The notes below the pieces were generated by a model. The model saw only the letters and a program-made list of their open reading frames with translations. It had not been told where the DNA came from and did no database searches. Made by a program: the position numbers and the translations under genes. This document shows positions 3,252 through 6,751 of a stretch of DNA of 11,027 nt, piece after piece. The stretch is taken from UHGV virus genome UHGV-0176277. One strand, 5' to 3'. Positions within the stretch are counted from its first letter, which is position 1, and each line of letters begins with the position of its first letter. This stretch comes from a virus.

Positions 3252-3328
3252 GTGGATTGATCCAGTAATGACCTCAGAATTCCATCTGGATTTGTTCAGA
3301 ACGCTCGGTTGCCTCCGGGCGTTTTTTA
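3252..3328 (+). ncRNA. oop: oop-like antisense RNA overlapping the 3-prime end of cII
   Basis: Sequence tgattgatccagtaatgacctcagaattccatctggatttgttcagaacgctcggttgcctccgggcgtttttt closely matches lambda oop RNA as I recall it; ends in a GC hairpin plus T6; CATAAT -10 at 3239-3244; convergent with cII (stop at 3274). Confidence 0.7.
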
Positions 3329-3567
3329 TTGGTGAGAATCGAAGCAACTTGTCGTGCCAATCGAGCCATATCGTCGTCGACGACGCCCCATTCAAGAACA
3401 GCAAGCAGCATTGAGAACTTTGGAATCCAATCCCTCTTCCACCTGCTGATCTGCGACTTATCAACTCCCACAGCTTCCGCTGTCTTCTCAGTTCCAAGCA
3501 TTGCGATTTTGTTAAGCAACGCACTCTCGATTCGTAGAGCCTCGTTGCGTTTGTTTGCACGAACCAT
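3274..3567 (-). CDS. cII: Transcriptional activator CII (97 aa)
   Basis: Translation from the internal ATG at 3567 (MVRANKRNEALRIESALLNKIAMLGTEKTAEAVGVDKSQISRWKRDWIPKFSMLLAVLEWGVVDDDMARLARQVA...ERSEQIQMEF) is essentially lambda CII; SD and leader TAAGGAAATACTTACATATG match lambda. The track's 126-aa ORF is an upstream in-frame extension. Confidence 0.95.
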   Translation of the reverse strand: MVRANKRNEALRIESALLNKIAMLGTEKTAEAVGVDKSQISRWKRDWIPKFSMLLAVLEWGVVDDDMARLARQVASILTNKKRPEATERSEQIQMEF

Positions 3568-3675: not shown

Positions 3676-3870
3676 CTATTTGTTTTTCTTGTTGCTTGGG
3701 AAAGGACGAACTTCCTCTCCAATCACACTGCCATCAGGCTTTACCGTAACCATAATGTTACGACCTGCCAGAATGGCCTTGCTGATAGCGCACTGGATTA
3801 CACCAAAGTCACTGGCTGCTTTAGCCTGTCCATGGATTTTGGCGTAATCGGCAAGTGTCATTCGAATCAT
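3676..3870 (-). CDS. cro: Cro repressor (64 aa)
   Basis: [62 protein letters not shown] aligns along its length with lambda Cro; ATG at 3870 with GGAG 7 nt upstream; divergent from cI. The track's GTG start at 3876 is a short extension. Confidence 0.85.
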
Positions 3871-3892
3871 ATGCACTCTCCGTTATTAACCA

Positions 3893-3976: not shown

Positions 3977-4693
3977 ATGGAAAATAAAAAATCACTGACG
4001 ACAGAACAGCTCGAAGACGCTAAGCGGCTTAAGGCTTTGTATGAGTCAAAAAAGAAAGAATTGGGAATAACCCAATACTCAATCGCTGATGAACTGGGTA
4101 TCACCCAAGGAGCGGTAGGGCATTATCTTAATGGCAGAAACGCGCTAAACGTTGAGGTTGCATCTGGTTTTGCACGGCTGTTGCAAGTCTCAATTGCTGA
4201 TTTTAGCCAGTCAATTGCTGCCAAGGTTGCAGAACAGGCAGAAAGCCTTAAGAGCGATGCCAACGTAAGGTATGCAGGGGAATACAGAGCAGGAAAGAGG
4301 TATCCGGTGTTAAGCAGTATCCAGGCTGGCTCGTGGTGTGAAGCATGCGAACCATACACCATTAAAGACATAGATGTTTGGCTTGAGTCTGACGCGCATA
4401 TTCAAGGTAATGCGTTCTGGCTTAAAGTGGAAGGTGATTCAATGACGGCACCGGTTGGGTTAAGCATTCCAGAGGGGACATTCGTTCTTTTCGATACCGG
4501 AAGGGAGGCGATCAACGGCAGCTTGGTCATAGCAAAACTTTCTGACTCTAACGAAGCAACATTCAAGAAGCTGATAATCGACGGCGGAAATAAATACCTC
4601 AAGGGACTTAATCCTGCATGGCCTCTCGTGCCAATCAATGGAAACTGCAAGATTATAGGCGTTGCAATTGAGACAAAACTAAGGCTGGTTTGA
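3977..4693 (+). CDS. cI: CI repressor (HTH N-terminal domain plus S24/LexA-type autocleaving C-terminal domain)
   Basis: N-terminus ...LTTEQLEDAKRLKALYESKKKELGITQYSIADELGITQGAVGHYLNGRNALN parallels lambda CI; Ala-Gly cleavage site in SIQAGSW; catalytic Ser in EGDSMTAP and Lys in TFKKLI. Confidence 0.95.
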   Translation: MENKKSLTTEQLEDAKRLKALYESKKKELGITQYSIADELGITQGAVGHYLNGRNALNVEVASGFARLLQVSIADFSQSIAAKVAEQAESLKSDANVRYAGEYRAGKRYPVLSSIQAGSWCEACEPYTIKDIDVWLESDAHIQGNAFWLKVEGDSMTAPVGLSIPEGTFVLFDTGREAINGSLVIAKLSDSNEATFKKLIIDGGNKYLKGLNPAWPLVPINGNCKIIGVAIETKLRLV

Positions 4694-4710
4694 TCACGCA
4701 AGGGGCGATT

Positions 4711-5079
4711 ATGGTTGGAACCGCTATAGCAAGCTTTTTTGGGATGTTGGCAATCTCGACAATTTACGGCTTAGCGCATGCTTTTATTGCGAAATCTCTA
4801 TCAGAAAAAATAAGCCAGGCTTGGGCGCATAGATCAGCTCGTTTCATGATTCTGGTGATCATAGCAATACAAGGGATATCTGCATTTATCCTCTATGGAT
4901 CAAGCTTATACCTATTGTATCAAGGCGCGACATTTACGCCTTACACCAGTGATTACGGAACTCTATACGATGGTAGTGAAGACATCACTGTGGCTTGGAT
5001 CGTCTTTGGTTTATCTATGGCCGTGTCTGTTGTAGCAGACATCATTAAGGTAATTCTCGTCTTAACCTTCGCTGACTAA
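4711..5079 (+). CDS. Integral membrane protein (122 aa, about three TM helices), unknown function, directly downstream of cI
   Basis: ATG at 4711 with AGGGG SD 5 nt upstream, 17 nt after the cI stop, same strand with no intervening promoter or terminator; hydrophobic segments VGTAIASFFGMLAISTIYGLAHAFIA, FMILVIIAIQGISAFILYGSSLYLLY, ITVAWIVFGLSMAVSVVADIIKVILVLTF. The track's TTG start at 4690 is less likely. Confidence 0.6.
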   Translation: MVGTAIASFFGMLAISTIYGLAHAFIAKSLSEKISQAWAHRSARFMILVIIAIQGISAFILYGSSLYLLYQGATFTPYTSDYGTLYDGSEDITVAWIVFGLSMAVSVVADIIKVILVLTFAD

Positions 5080-5165
5080 CCTATAATCCCGGCAGCAATA
5101 GCTATCGGGATCCACTTCACATATCCCGCATAAAAAGCACTGAACAAGCAGACACCGAAAAAATA

Positions 5166-5260
5166 AATATCCTTTGTATTCATTTGCTTATCATTATTTC
5201 ATCAAAAATAAATACCTTGGGTATTTACATAATAAAATACCTACAGTATTCTTTAGCCAT
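5166..5260 (+). promoter_or_regulatory. Left operator region with PL promoter
   Basis: Operators AATATCCTTTGTATT (5166-5180), AATACCTTGGGTATT (5211-5225), AATACCTACAGTATT (5236-5250) share the OR consensus; PL candidate -35 TTTACA (5224-5229), 17-bp spacer, -10 TATTCT (5247-5252), mirroring the PR architecture. Confidence 0.6.
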
Positions 5261-5297
5261 CAGCAGGACGCTGGAAGCCAAACGGAACAGATTGGCA

Positions 5298-5339
5298 GGC
5301 TCTTTAACATTGATGGGATTGTCCCGCCGAAATGCGGGA
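5298..5339 (+). promoter_or_regulatory. nutL (boxA + boxB) N-utilisation site
   Basis: boxA GCTCTTTAACA (5299-5309) about 40 nt downstream of the predicted PL start; boxB CCCGCCGAAATGCGGG (5323-5338), identical to the nutR boxB. Confidence 0.75.
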
Positions 5340-5652
5340 ACCAAAGAGTAGTTGGCTTTGGGGTGACGTGAAGTGCAGCTGCACGACGGCAACCGGAAGA
5401 TAAGCACCCGGCGCGTCACCGCCAAAGTCAATTCCATAGGCGTTATGCAGCCGCCACCATATTCAAGAAAGCTGCACAAGAGGTAGGAGGATTTATGTGA
5501 ATGCATAACTTCAAAACCGAGGTTAATTAAATCTCTCGATCCGAGCATCGACCTATTAGGTGGTGAGATGCTCTTTCTGCCCCTCAATTCGAGGGGCCAG
5601 AAACCACTTTGCAATCACTATCAATTCCAAAGTTGTTTCATCGGAGGTCAAC

Positions 5653-5958
5653 ATGACAGTAGTCATTACATATCTGGCTGACGATAACGCCAGAAATCGC
5701 CGCAGAGCACGCAGACAGGCTCAACGTGAACAGGCAATGCAAGAACAGCGACTGGCGCGAAAAATTGCGCTAAAGCTCTCTGGTTGCGTCAGAGCAGATA
5801 AAGCAGCATCACTCGGAAGCCTTCGCTGCAAGAAGGCAGAAGAAGTCGAGCGTAAACAGAATCGTATTTACTACCGCAAGCCACGCAGTGAAATGGGTGT
5901 GACTTGTGTTGGACGCCAGAAGCAACGCGGAAAATCAATTCCAGCTTATTACGATTGA
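5653..5958 (+). CDS. N: Antitermination protein N (101 aa)
   Basis: Arginine-rich motif NARNRRRARRQAQREQA near the N-terminus; C-terminus VERKQNRIYYRKPRSEMGVTCVGRQKQRGKSIP parallels lambda N; ATG with GGAGG SD 5 nt upstream. The track's ORF from 5560 is an upstream in-frame extension. Confidence 0.85.
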   Translation: MTVVITYLADDNARNRRRARRQAQREQAMQEQRLARKIALKLSGCVRADKAASLGSLRCKKAEEVERKQNRIYYRKPRSEMGVTCVGRQKQRGKSIPAYYD

Positions 5959-6533: not shown

Positions 6534-6661
6534 ATTTGCTTTGGCATAAACAACAGAATAAACATTGCACTGTGTATTCATTCCAACGAGTGAATACACG
6601 GAGCAATGTCGCTCGTAACTAAACAGGAGCCGACTTGTTCTGATTATTGGAAATCTTCTTT

Positions 6662-6686
6662 GCCCTCCAGTGTGAGGGCTTTTTTA
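6662..6686 (+). terminator. Rho-independent terminator within the PL operon (tL-like), upstream of cIII
   Basis: GCCCTC-CAGTGT-GAGGGC hairpin (6662-6679) followed by TTTTTT (6680-6685). Confidence 0.7.
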
Positions 6687-6751
6687 TATGCATACCAATA
6701 ACGCTTCACGAGAGGCATTTTCGTTATGCAATCAAACAGAAGGAGCATCCT

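What the first reader, a model, noticed from the sequence alone, without database searches (positions are those of the whole stretch)
5340..5652. Long structured N leader: perfect 12-bp palindrome within a long inverted repeat, plus a second boxA/boxB-like element just upstream of N
The distance from nutL to the N start codon is about 315 nt, longer than in lambda. It contains an imperfect inverted repeat with arms of about 17 bp (5351-5368 and 5414-5431) enclosing a perfect palindrome GTGCAGCTGCAC (5373-5384). Further on, GCTCTTTC (5570-5577) is followed directly by a 7-bp GC stem-loop GCCCCTC-AATTC-GAGGGGC (5579-5597), about 55 nt before the N ATG. These could be an RNase III processing site, an N autoregulation element as in lambda, a second nut-like site, or a small regulatory RNA.
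Basis: seen in the sequence. Interest (0 to 1): 0.45.

Follow-up and report, generated by a model that had tools for sequence, protein, structure and literature searches.

The report
Structured N-gene leader with accessory module
This is the untranslated leader of a lambda-like prophage's N antiterminator gene: its long inverted repeat matches lambda's known RNase III processing stem, and the supposed second nut site is really part of a 206-base structured RNA insert with a tiny reading frame, which also turns up in some other phages and on conjugative plasmids and whose function is unknown.

Summary
The window is a lambdoid immunity region: cII, cro, cI, pL, nutL, N.

Element 1 (5350-5433) is a 21-bp stem with one bulge. 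It is homologous to the RNase III / N-autoregulation stem of the lambda N leader. Across 19 alleles 92.5% of cells pair, against 32-45% in slid controls, and 12 of 21 pairs show compensatory changes. The 12-nt palindrome is only the tip of one allele and is no more than chance.

Element 2 is not a nut site. The real boxB (CCCGCCGAAATGCGGG) is identical in nutL and nutR and differs from this hairpin. The same hairpin occurs with P22-type and other N/nut specificities, and on plasmids that have no N gene next to it. The 'boxA' octamer is the junction of two covarying helices.

It belongs to a 206-nt module (5433-5638) that HK620 and lambda lack. The module has a strong Shine-Dalgarno sequence, an AUG-UGA start-stop, a 9-codon mini-ORF, two abutting hairpins and a hairpin just before the N ribosome-binding site. 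It is present in 163 of 5426 complete E. coli genomes and matches no Rfam family.

Its function is only inferred. Most likely it acts in cis on N mRNA stability or translation after RNase III processing. Interest is moderate.

The parts
5224..5252 (+). pL promoter (TTTACA, 17-nt spacer, TATTCT) overlapping the OL operators. The transcript starts at about 5259 (ATCAGCAGGACGC, identical to the first 13 nt of the lambda pL transcript).
   Evidence: Promoter scan; HK620 annotation of OL1-3 and pL; alignment with the lambda leader.
5299..5338 (+). nutL: boxA GCTCTTTAACA (5299-5309), spacer hairpin GGGATTGTCCC (5315-5325), boxB CCCGCCGAAATGCGGG (5323-5338).
   Evidence: HK620 nutL annotation. The same boxA and boxB are in nutR on the minus strand (boxA 3668-3658, boxB 3642-3627).
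5350..5433 (+). H1: long leader stem, 5350-5370 paired with 5412-5433, 21 bp, bulged G at 5421. It has two small apical hairpins, 5373-5384 (the palindrome) and 5393-5411. It is the homologue of the lambda N-leader RNase III stem.
   Evidence: Fold -41.3 kcal/mol, z = -4.8. Homology of the stem base to lambda. Covariation: 92.5% paired, 12 of 21 pairs changed on both sides.
5433..5638 (+). Accessory leader module 'M3': a 206-nt insertion relative to HK620 and lambda, flanked by imperfect direct repeats TCAATTCCATAGGCGTT (5428-5444) and TCAATTCCAAAGTTGTT (5621-5637).
   Evidence: Alignment with HK620, HK140 and CUS-3; direct repeat D4; module map of 83 loci.
5446..5476 (+). H2: weak hairpin UGCAGC (5446-5451) paired with GCUGCA (5471-5476) and a variable 19-nt loop. 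It ends 8-9 nt before the Shine-Dalgarno sequence. Tentative.
   Evidence: Fold -7 kcal/mol, z = -0.1. The stem is kept while the loop differs in HK140-type alleles. A different hairpin occupies the same place in L124 and in the plasmid (by eye).
5485..5530 (+). Strong Shine-Dalgarno AGGAGGA (5485-5491), start-stop ATG TGA (5495-5500), then mini-ORF ATG 5501 to TAA 5528-5530 (MHNFKTEVN).
   Evidence: Sequence. Shine-Dalgarno plus ATG-TGA/TAA is kept in types A and B and in the plasmid allele. Type B has lost the second ATG.
5543..5573 (+). H3: hairpin GAGCAUC (5543-5549) paired with GAUGCUC (5567-5573), with inner pairs 5551-5553/5562-5564. Its 3' arm holds the first half of the 'boxA-like' octamer (GCUC, 5570-5573).
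   Evidence: RNAalifold. Covariation: 95.7% paired, 5 of 10 pairs changed on both sides.
5574..5603 (+). H5: the GC hairpin, UUUCUGCCCCUC (5574-5585), loop AAUUC (5586-5590), GAGGGGC(C)AGAAA (5591-5603). It is 12 bp with one bulged C and abuts H3 with no spacer. Its 5' arm holds the second half of the 'boxA-like' octamer (UUUC, 5574-5577).
   Evidence: Folds. Covariation: 96% paired, 6 of 13 pairs changed on both sides, loops vary.
5600..5639 (+). H4: hairpin GAAACCACUUUGCAAU paired with AUUCCAAAGUUGUUUC, immediately 5' of the N ribosome-binding site. It shares GAAA (5600-5603) with the base of H5.
   Evidence: Inverted repeat I3, 88% complementary. Fold z = -2.1. A C-to-A change in three alleles turns a C.U mismatch into an A-U pair. 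No double compensatory change was seen.
5643..5958 (+). N ribosome-binding site (GGAGG 5643-5647) and N gene (ATG 5653 to stop 5956-5958, 101 aa, arginine-rich motif NARNRRRARRQAQ).
   Evidence: Translation. 98% DNA identity to the HK620/HF4s N region. Weak Pfam N_peptide hit, below the cut-off.

Best explanation
The interval is the roughly 395-nt 5' leader of the N antiterminator mRNA of an HK620/HK140-like lambdoid prophage. It has two independent parts.

(1) 5350-5433 is this phage's version of the lambda N-leader stem. In lambda this long double-stranded RNA lies between nutL and the N ribosome-binding site. RNase III cleaves it, and it sets how strongly the N-Nus complex bound at nutL represses N translation. 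I infer the same role here.

(2) The 'second boxA/boxB' is not a nut site. It is the junction and second hairpin of a 206-nt accessory leader module (5433-5638), inserted between the RNase III stem and the N ribosome-binding site. The module is a conserved structured RNA. It has a weak 5' hairpin, a strong Shine-Dalgarno sequence with an AUG-UGA start-stop and a mini-ORF of about 9 codons, two abutting hairpins (H3, H5), and a hairpin before the N ribosome-binding site (H4).

If RNase III cuts H1, the module becomes the 5' UTR of the processed N mRNA. It does not depend on the N type or on the sequence of the N ribosome-binding site. I therefore propose, by inference only, that it acts in cis and generically: a ribosome held at the strong Shine-Dalgarno/start-stop, together with the flanking hairpins, protects the long processed leader from RNase E and Rho and so tunes how much N is made.
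For: Shown:
- Gene context is cII, Cro, cI (S24 peptidase + HTH), then N, with 96-98% identity to HK140, HK620 and HF4s. pL, OL and nutL are as annotated in HK620.
- H1 is very stable.
- The lambda leader shares its first 13 nt, boxA, and the stem base GGCTTTGGGGTG...CACC.CCAAAG. The L026 allele has lambda's 3' arm CCACACCACCAAAGCTAA.
- 19 distinct alleles with non-homologous interiors keep the stem: 92.5% paired against 32-45% slid, 12 of 21 pairs changed on both sides, score 0.438 against at most 0.09.
- In lambda, N represses its own translation through nutL across a highly structured leader, and RNase III modulates this (PMC5725501, citing Wilson 1997 and 2002; PMC8708148; PMC5371410, citing Steege 1987).
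- The module is an exact 206-nt indel relative to HK620.
- It has divergent alleles (A, HK140-type, B, L093 group, L124, L140, plasmid) that keep H3 and H5 through compensatory changes.
- The 123-nt core folds at -47.8 kcal/mol, z = -5.4.
- A covariance model finds exactly one copy per phage locus among the 66 loci that hold the element, which had been retrieved through its own SD/start-stop motif (about 0.7 Mb searched). In the 12 leaders read in full it lies in the N leader.
- The module occurs with HK620-type, P22-type and two other N/nut types whose N ribosome-binding sites differ.

Inferred: RNase III cleavage of H1, translation of the start-stop/mini-ORF, and the protective or tuning role.
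Against: - No experimental data exist for this phage. RNase III cleavage is inferred from homology only.
- The stem arms used for the covariation count were chosen partly by duplex energy, which favours pairing.
- Several module alleles were retrieved with a pattern that contains the Shine-Dalgarno/start-stop motif, so its invariance is partly ascertainment.
- Few independent lineages exist, perhaps 5 to 7.
- The mini-ORF peptide is not conserved. Type B, the commonest allele in E. coli genomes, has lost the second ATG and carries an early stop.
- HK620 and lambda do without the module, so it is dispensable.
- A homologous unit on plasmids lies at the end of a gene run beside hok, not in front of an obvious target gene. 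That fits a self-contained RNA at least as well as a cis-acting leader.
- No alternative pairing that links the module to the N ribosome-binding site is conserved.
Confidence: 0.6

Rival explanations
1. The GCTCTTTC + GC hairpin is a second, functional nut-like site. It would recruit NusB/NusE and/or N close to the N start, for antitermination or for suhB-like translational repression.
For: - It matches the boxA core GCUCUUUA at 7 of 8 positions and is followed by a stable hairpin.
- BoxA elements can repress a downstream gene from up to 100 nt away (PMC5725501).
Against: - The cognate boxB is CCCGCCGAAATGCGGG in both nutL and nutR. The GC hairpin has a different stem and a non-GNRA-like loop.
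- The same hairpin occurs in leaders with P22-type boxB/N and two other N types, and on plasmids without N.
- Its loop is free to vary: AATTC, AGTTC, ATGTC, TTAT, TATAT, GACAG, TAATT, CAAT.
- All 8 boxA-like bases are paired in H3 and H5. GUUCUUUC alleles (plasmid, L140) carry the compensating G-to-A in the opposite arm, and L124 has GGCUUUCU.
- The boxA-to-hairpin spacing is 1 nt, against 13-15 nt in this phage's real nut sites.
Confidence: 0.05
2. The module is a self-contained RNA gene: a stable processed RNA of about 170 nt, possibly dual-function. RNase III cleavage of H1 releases it at the 5' end, and H5 protects the 3' end. It would act in trans on host or phage targets.
For: - The unit from the Shine-Dalgarno sequence to H5 moves as a discrete block. 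It is found alone on 11 conjugative plasmids and as tandem related units on about 100 plasmids.
- It is independent of the N type and of the N ribosome-binding site.
- It is bounded by stable hairpins.
Against: - There is no promoter of its own.
- There is no U-tract terminator after H5 on either strand.
- No Rfam family matches.
- No target is known.
- A strong Shine-Dalgarno sequence with a start codon is unusual for a pure base-pairing sRNA.
Confidence: 0.15
3. H3 and H5 form a cis-acting element that modifies RNA polymerase or blocks Rho, working like HK022 put. It would let early transcription proceed without N, which would be useful in plasmid operons and in the first pL transcripts.
For: - There are two abutting stem-loops in an early leader, and related units lie in long one-directional arrays of plasmid genes downstream of mobI.
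- From my own knowledge: put RNAs are two adjacent stem-loops in the same genomic position.
Against: - The covariance model finds no match in the HK022 pL-nun region (best hit 10 bits, E = 0.18).
- These phages already have nutL and N upstream.
- This idea does not explain the preceding Shine-Dalgarno sequence and mini-ORF.
Confidence: 0.08
4. The module has no RNA function. It would be a mosaic 'boundary/linker' sequence or a decayed remnant of a small gene, kept because it serves as a homologous recombination joint between phage modules.
For: - CUS-3's authors annotated the stretch as 'bsq5; boundary sequence'.
- The N leader is a hot spot of insertions and replacements. Other inserts sit at the same point, including a small hydrophobic ORF in L026 and an extra ORF in L119.
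- Type B looks like a decayed mini-ORF.
- HK620 lacks the module.
Against: - Compensatory changes maintain H3 and H5 across alleles that differ by 20-30% or more, which a neutral relic would not show.
- The core folds far better than shuffles (z = -5.4, -3.7 and -3.0 in three alleles).
- The unit also occurs outside phages.
Confidence: 0.1
5. The region codes for protein: either the 42-aa HK140_048 ORF starting at the GTG of the palindrome, or the 129-aa minus-strand ORF 5225-5614 that PGAP annotates in some genomes.
For: Both are annotated as hypothetical proteins in public records, and the ORF appears in the mechanical list.
Against: - The plus-strand ORF ends at a TAG at 5484 in this window (37 codons) and is destroyed in HK620 and in every leader with another H1 allele.
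- The minus-strand frame is broken into different pieces in HK140, L004, L093, L119, L122, L124 and L140.
- It would run antisense through nutL.
Confidence: 0.02

Closest known systems
Phage lambda N-gene leader: the RNase III processing stem between nutL and the N ribosome-binding site, and N/nutL translational autoregulation (Steege 1987; Wilson 1997, 2002; summarised in PMC5725501)
   Same: - Same promoter-proximal sequence, with the first 13 nt identical.
- Same order: pL, boxA, boxB, long stem, ribosome-binding site, N.
- Same stem-base sequence GGCUUUGGGGUG / CACC-N-CCAAAG, with a one-base bulge.
- In HK620-type leaders the stem ends 6-11 nt before the Shine-Dalgarno sequence, as in lambda.
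   Different: - The interior of the stem is unrelated. Here there are two mini-hairpins including the palindrome, and lambda has a longer irregular arm.
- In this window a 206-nt module separates the stem from the N ribosome-binding site, so the looping geometry and the processed 5' UTR differ from lambda.
- Cleavage has not been shown for this phage.
Coliphages HK620, HK140 and CUS-3 (sequenced relatives)
   Same: - HK140 has the same long leader at 96% identity.
- CUS-3 has the module as allele B.
- HK620 has identical pL, nutL, H1 and N ribosome-binding site.
   Different: - HK620 lacks the module.
- In those records the region is annotated only as a 'hypothetical protein' (HK140_048) or as 'boundary sequence bsq5' (CUS-3). 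No RNA feature is annotated.
nut sites (boxA + boxB) of lambdoid phages
   Same: A pyrimidine-rich GCUCUUU motif followed by a hairpin.
   Different: The motif is base-paired, the spacing is 1 nt, the hairpin differs from the cognate boxB, and it is independent of N specificity.
Upstream mini-ORF / start-stop leaders and ribosome-dependent 5' stabilisers (ermC and SP82 leaders in Bacillus; start-stops seen by ribosome profiling in E. coli). Cited from my own knowledge, not tested here.
   Same: A strong Shine-Dalgarno sequence, AUG followed directly by a stop and a very short ORF in a 5' leader. It sits next to an RNase III site (as in SP82) and is flanked by hairpins.
   Different: No evidence of translation or stabilisation here. 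No conserved alternative pairing that would gate a terminator or the downstream Shine-Dalgarno sequence, as classical attenuators have.
HK022 put RNAs (cis-acting, N-independent antiterminator RNAs)
   Same: Two adjacent stem-loops in the early leader of a lambdoid phage.
   Different: No sequence or profile similarity. The phage has nutL and N. The module includes a translated-looking mini-ORF.

Membership tests
Lambda-type N-leader RNase III / autoregulation stem | Located on the pL transcript between nutL and the N ribosome-binding site | tested here: met
   nutL is at 5299-5338, the stem at 5350-5433 and the N ATG at 5653. In HK620 the stem abuts the ribosome-binding site.
Lambda-type N-leader RNase III / autoregulation stem | Sequence homology to the lambda stem base | tested here: met
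   GGCTTTGGGGTG is shared, as is CACC-N-CCAAAG. The L026 allele carries lambda's 3' arm.
Lambda-type N-leader RNase III / autoregulation stem | About two helical turns of double-stranded RNA maintained by selection | tested here: met
   21 bp with one bulge, -41.3 kcal/mol. 92.5% paired and 12 of 21 pairs with compensatory changes in 19 alleles.
Lambda-type N-leader RNase III / autoregulation stem | Cleaved by RNase III, with cleavage changing N translation | not testable with these tools
   Needs rnc+/rnc- end mapping or in vitro cleavage.
nut site (boxA + boxB) | boxB hairpin is the one recognised by the phage's own N, and is the same in nutL and nutR | tested here: not met
   nutL and nutR both have CCCGCCGAAATGCGGG. 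The 5579-5597 hairpin is GCCCCTC-AATTC-GAGGGGC.
nut site (boxA + boxB) | The hairpin co-varies with the specificity of the N arginine-rich motif | tested here: not met
   The same stem occurs with HK620-type, P22-type and two other N types, and on plasmids without N. The loop varies freely.
nut site (boxA + boxB) | Single-stranded boxA matching GCUCUUUA | tested here: not met
   It matches 7 of 8 positions, but all 8 nt lie in covarying helices H3 and H5. The alleles GUUCUUUC and GGCUUUCU break the consensus.
Intrinsic (Rho-independent) terminator | GC-rich hairpin followed by a U-tract | tested here: not met
   The hairpin is followed by CAGAAACCAC on the plus strand and AGAAAGAGCA on the minus strand. 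The terminator scan finds none there.
Any curated RNA family (Rfam 15) | Covariance-model match | tested here: not met
   No hit in 5259-5652 at E <= 1. The only hit in the window is a chance mir-137 match at 6563-6608.
HK022 put RNA | Similarity to putL | tested here: not met
   The module's covariance model scores at most 10.4 bits (E = 0.18) anywhere in the HK022 pL-nun region. Functional equivalence was not tested.
Leader-peptide attenuator | Short translated ORF whose translation switches alternative hairpins that gate a terminator or the downstream Shine-Dalgarno sequence | tested here: inconclusive
   A short ORF with a strong Shine-Dalgarno sequence is present. One alternative hairpin (UCGAU/AUCGA competing with H3) exists in type A but is not conserved in type B or the plasmid allele (by eye). 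No terminator, and no sequestration of the N Shine-Dalgarno sequence, was found.

The most novel reading that the evidence does not exclude
The block from the Shine-Dalgarno sequence through the start-stop/mini-ORF to the twin hairpins may be a member of an undescribed family of mobile leader RNA modules. The family would be shared by the early leftward (pL) leaders of lambdoid phages and by one-directional arrays of small genes next to the transfer origin/mobI on large conjugative plasmids. On some plasmids it occurs as tandem units. It would work independently of N, as a ribosome-engaging element that secures or times expression of the first genes transcribed after the DNA enters a new cell. 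Possible modes are protection from Rho or RNase E, or action as a dual-function small RNA.
Probability: 0.25. Interest if true: 0.65.

Novelty: new variant of a known kind. Interest (0 to 1): 0.45.

Why it matters
The level of N sets the pace of early lambdoid gene expression and feeds into the lysis-lysogeny decision. In lambda it is controlled by the nutL / RNase III-stem / ribosome-binding-site geometry of the leader.

This work shows that the stem is conserved by covariation across many lambdoid immunity and N types, which generalises the lambda mechanism.

It also shows that a sizeable minority of prophages place a conserved structured module with a start-stop mini-ORF between the stem and the N ribosome-binding site. 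These make up 3% of complete E. coli genomes and include UPEC/K1 strains such as UTI89, IHE3034 and RS218 (CUS-3). This is a natural test of the RNA-looping model of N autoregulation, and a testable candidate for a new post-transcriptional control element.

Related units on conjugative plasmids hint at a more general function in early expression. The practical gain is better annotation: the region is currently annotated as hypothetical proteins or as a 'boundary sequence'.

Tried and rejected
- **Rfam scan of the whole window at E <= 1:** nothing in the leader.
- **Second nut site:** rejected, as set out above.
- **Intrinsic terminator on either strand:** no U-tract.
- **Own promoter inside the module:** none found.
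- **Protein-coding readings** (HK140_048; the minus-strand 129-aa ORF annotated by PGAP): the frames are not conserved.
- **put-like element:** no match in HK022.
- **The palindrome as a feature in its own right:** it is no more than chance and is present only in the HK620-type H1 allele. Other alleles have unrelated interiors.
- **Alternative pairing between the palindrome and H2** (inverted repeat I6): not conserved, because H1 alleles swap independently of the module.
- **Conserved pairing between the module and the N ribosome-binding site:** rejected, because the module occurs with unrelated N ribosome-binding sites.
- **Scan of GTDB species representatives with the Shine-Dalgarno/start-stop 17-mer:** mostly chance hits, with only 3 relevant contigs.
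- **Pfam on the plasmid neighbour genes:** uninformative.
- **Papers:** Wilson 1997 and 2002 and Bubunenko 2013 are not held in the library, so details of the lambda cleavage sites are not cited. The literature searches run here (nutL + sRNA + prophage; N leader + RNase III; CUS-3 / HK620 + boundary sequence) turned up no description of this module.
Full report
**Context.** The window is the immunity and early-regulation region of a lambdoid prophage, in reverse orientation to the lambda map.
- On the minus strand lie CII (3277-3564) and Cro (3679-3876).
- On the plus strand lie a cI-type repressor (3977-4693; HTH + S24 peptidase), a 129-aa ORF, the OL/pL region, and N (5653-5958).
- The DNA is 96-98% identical to coliphages HK140, HF4s and HK620.
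- HK620's authors annotated OL1-3, pL and nutL at the homologous positions.
- The pL transcript should start near 5259 with ATCAGCAGGACGC, which is identical to the first 13 nt of the lambda pL transcript.
- nutL has a boxA GCTCTTTAACA (5299-5309) and a boxB CCCGCCGAAATGCGGG (5323-5338). nutR on the other strand has the same boxA and the very same boxB (boxA 3668-3658, boxB 3642-3627). That hairpin is therefore the cognate N-binding site.

**Observation check.**
- The N ATG is at 5653, and the distance from boxB to the ATG is 314 nt.
- The inverted repeat is part of a 21-bp stem with one bulge (5350-5370 paired with 5412-5433), at -41.3 kcal/mol and z = -4.8.
- The whole leader folds much better than shuffles (z = -5.3).
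- The 12-nt palindrome alone is unremarkable: 2 in the window against 2.8 expected.
- The GC hairpin is longer than described. UUUCUG pairs with CAGAAA and extends it to 12 bp with one bulged C (5574-5603).

**Element 1 is the lambda-type N-leader stem.**
- The lambda leader has, at the same place, the stem GGCUUUGGGGUGUGUG...CACACACC-A-CCAAAGCU. The window has UUGGCUUUGGGGUGACG...CGUCACC-G-CCAAAGUCAA.
- One related allele (L026) even carries lambda's 3' arm.
- I collected leaders upstream of 80 N homologues from IMG/VR, plus other loci. This gave 19 distinct arm pairs whose interiors are unrelated in sequence and length, with spans of 62-152 nt.
- On these, the 21 pairs are 92.5% paired, against 32-45% when the partner is slid. 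Twelve pairs change on both sides. The covariation score is 0.438, against at most 0.09 for the slid controls.
- Caveat: the arms were anchored on the TTTGG/CCAAA motifs and picked by duplex energy, which favours pairing.
- In lambda, N bound at nutL represses its own translation over a highly structured leader, and RNase III modulates this (PMC5725501, citing Wilson et al. 1997 and 2002; PMC8708148; PMC5371410, citing Steege et al. 1987).
- Homology, position and covariation make the same role likely here. Cleavage itself is inferred.
- The palindrome is simply the apical mini-hairpin of the HK620-type allele.

**Element 2 is not a nut site.**
1. The hairpin differs from the cognate boxB.
2. 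The pattern AGGAGGATTTATGTRAAT retrieved 70 viral loci. Among them the same element sits in N leaders with a P22-type nutL (boxB GCGCTGACAAAGCGC) and a gp24-like N, with two further N types, and in one case with an extra ORF before N. The stem is kept while the loop varies freely.
3. A homologous unit lies on conjugative plasmids that have no N gene nearby.
4. The 'boxA' octamer GCUCUUUC is the last four bases of the 3' arm of one helix (H3, 5543-5549 paired with 5567-5573) and the first four bases of the 5' arm of the next (H5). Both helices are supported by compensatory changes.
   - H3: 95.7% paired, 5 of 10 pairs changed on both sides.
   - H5: 96% paired, 6 of 13 pairs changed on both sides.
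   - The GUUCUUUC alleles, which break the boxA consensus, carry the matching G-to-A change in the opposite arm.

**What element 2 belongs to.**
- Aligned with HK620, the window has an exact 206-nt insertion (5433-5638) between the end of the stem and the N ribosome-binding site. HK140 and CUS-3 share it.
- Imperfect 17-nt direct repeats flank it.
- The module contains, in order:
  - a weak hairpin (5446-5476);
  - a strong Shine-Dalgarno sequence AGGAGGA (5485-5491);
  - ATG TGA (5495-5500);
  - a second ATG opening a 9-codon ORF (5501-5530, MHNFKTEVN);
  - H3;
  - H5;
  - a hairpin (5600-5639) that ends 3 nt before the N Shine-Dalgarno sequence.
- The 123-nt core folds at -47.8 kcal/mol (z = -5.4). 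The B and plasmid alleles fold with z = -3.7 and -3.0.
- The mini-ORF peptide is poorly conserved. Type B has lost the second ATG and has an early stop. The Shine-Dalgarno sequence and the AUG-stop are kept, with TGA or TAA as the stop.
- Part of that invariance is ascertainment, because several alleles were retrieved through that motif.

**Distribution.**
- Among the 80 best N-homologue loci, 38 have the short HK620-type leader and 26 carry the module. The rest have other replacements or insertions at the same joints.
- In complete E. coli genomes the module is in 163 of 5426.
- In the phage collection it is in only HK140 and CUS-3.
- A covariance model of the core finds exactly one copy in each of the 66 loci that hold the element, loci that had been retrieved through its own SD/start-stop motif, in about 0.7 Mb. 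In every leader read in full it lies in the N leader. It finds none in module-less leaders.
- The model also detects related units on plasmids.
  - A single unit scores 96 bits on 11 MOBH conjugative plasmids, beside hok.
  - Tandem units score 35-38 and 22-24 bits on about 100 large Citrobacter and Klebsiella plasmids.
  - In pKPC_CAV1321-244 the tandem units lie about 6.5 kb downstream of mobI, within a one-directional run of small hypothetical genes.

**Mechanism.**
- Shown: the secondary structures and their conservation; the modular insertion; independence from N/nut specificity and from the sequence of the N ribosome-binding site.
- Inferred: (a) RNase III cleaves H1 as in lambda. (b) The module then forms the 5' UTR of the processed N mRNA. 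(c) Its strong Shine-Dalgarno/start-stop binds ribosomes and, with the flanking hairpins, protects the long leader from RNase E or Rho and tunes N synthesis.
- I put about 0.85 on the structural and homology statements, about 0.7 on RNase III processing, and about 0.35 on the specific role proposed for the module.
- Rivals are a trans-acting processed RNA, a put-like or anti-Rho element, a functionless mosaic joint, a real nut site, and protein coding. The last two are effectively excluded.

**Comparison and novelty.**
- The first element is a new member of a known kind, the lambda N-leader RNase III stem.
- The module matches no Rfam family. In public records it is annotated only as a hypothetical protein or as a 'boundary sequence'. 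The literature searches I ran turned up no description of it.
- It is best called a new variant of a known kind: an N leader with an accessory upstream-ORF and hairpin module. There is an outside chance that it represents a wider family of mobile leader RNAs shared with plasmids.

Noticed in passing
window 6562-6608 (+): A near-perfect 21-bp hairpin (CATTGCACTGTGTATTCA...TGAATACACGGAGCAATG) lies in the pL operon downstream of N, at -28.8 kcal/mol and z = -7.6. It gave a chance mir-137 hit in Rfam. No U-tract follows it. It is long enough to be another RNase III-type site or a processing/retroregulation element.
   Followed up: partly
window 6662-6690 (+): GCCCTCCAGTGTGAGGGCTTTTTTAT looks like an intrinsic terminator. 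It is a candidate for tL1, the first terminator that N-modified polymerase must read through.
   Followed up: no
window 5315-5338 (+), and 3650-3627 (-): In nutL a small spacer hairpin (GGGATTGTCCC) overlaps the 5' arm of boxB (CCCGC...), so the two structures exclude each other. nutR has a different spacer. This recalls the two-hairpin nutR described for H-19B (PMC3526286).
   Followed up: no
L026, L028, L045, L054, L062, L066 (about 190 nt between the stem and N): At the same insertion point as the module, these leaders carry a small ORF with its own Shine-Dalgarno sequence. It encodes a hydrophobic peptide of about 40 aa (MLDIMTNPILGGLVTTFAICFGFTIWSEVDDWMWERKNK). Their stem allele is nearly identical to lambda's.
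   Followed up: partly
L055, L058, L070, L072, L075 and L034, L037, L048, L051: A different insertion of about 250 nt sits between nutL boxB and the RNase III-type stem, with or without the module. The N leader is thus a hot spot with at least three independent insertion or replacement joints.
   Followed up: no
L209 5281-5625 (-), L228, L234, L238 7001-7345: Large Citrobacter, Klebsiella and Serratia plasmids (about 100 in PLSDB) carry two tandem related units. Each has a strong Shine-Dalgarno sequence, a 7-10-codon ORF and one or two hairpins. Unit 2 encodes MRTRNFKSESM, which shares N/K-F-K-S/T-E with the window's MHNFKTEVN and the other plasmid's MHKFKSESK. The units lie after a terminator-like hairpin and about 6.5 kb downstream of mobI(A/C).
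   Followed up: partly
L085 1498-1626 / L235 9014-9142: On MOBH/MPF_F conjugative plasmids of Klebsiella, E. coli, Serratia and Citrobacter, a single homologous unit lies between a 166-aa hypothetical gene and a convergent hok/mok (FlmC) toxin locus. It is followed by a methyltransferase gene and many small hypothetical genes.
   Followed up: partly
window 4690-5079 (+): A 129-aa ORF with no Pfam hit lies between cI and pL, in the position of lambda rexB and HK620 hkaS. It is followed by a terminator-like inverted repeat, ATCCCGGCAGC/GCTATCGGGAT (5086-5111), which corresponds to HK620 tIMM. It is likely a gene expressed from the prophage.
   Followed up: no
L119 (downstream of the module): One phage has a 66-aa ORF (MSSRISNEQKDRLCRLLSEFGV...) between the module and N. 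It uses the ribosome-binding site that serves N in the window, and N follows with a different ribosome-binding site.
   Followed up: no
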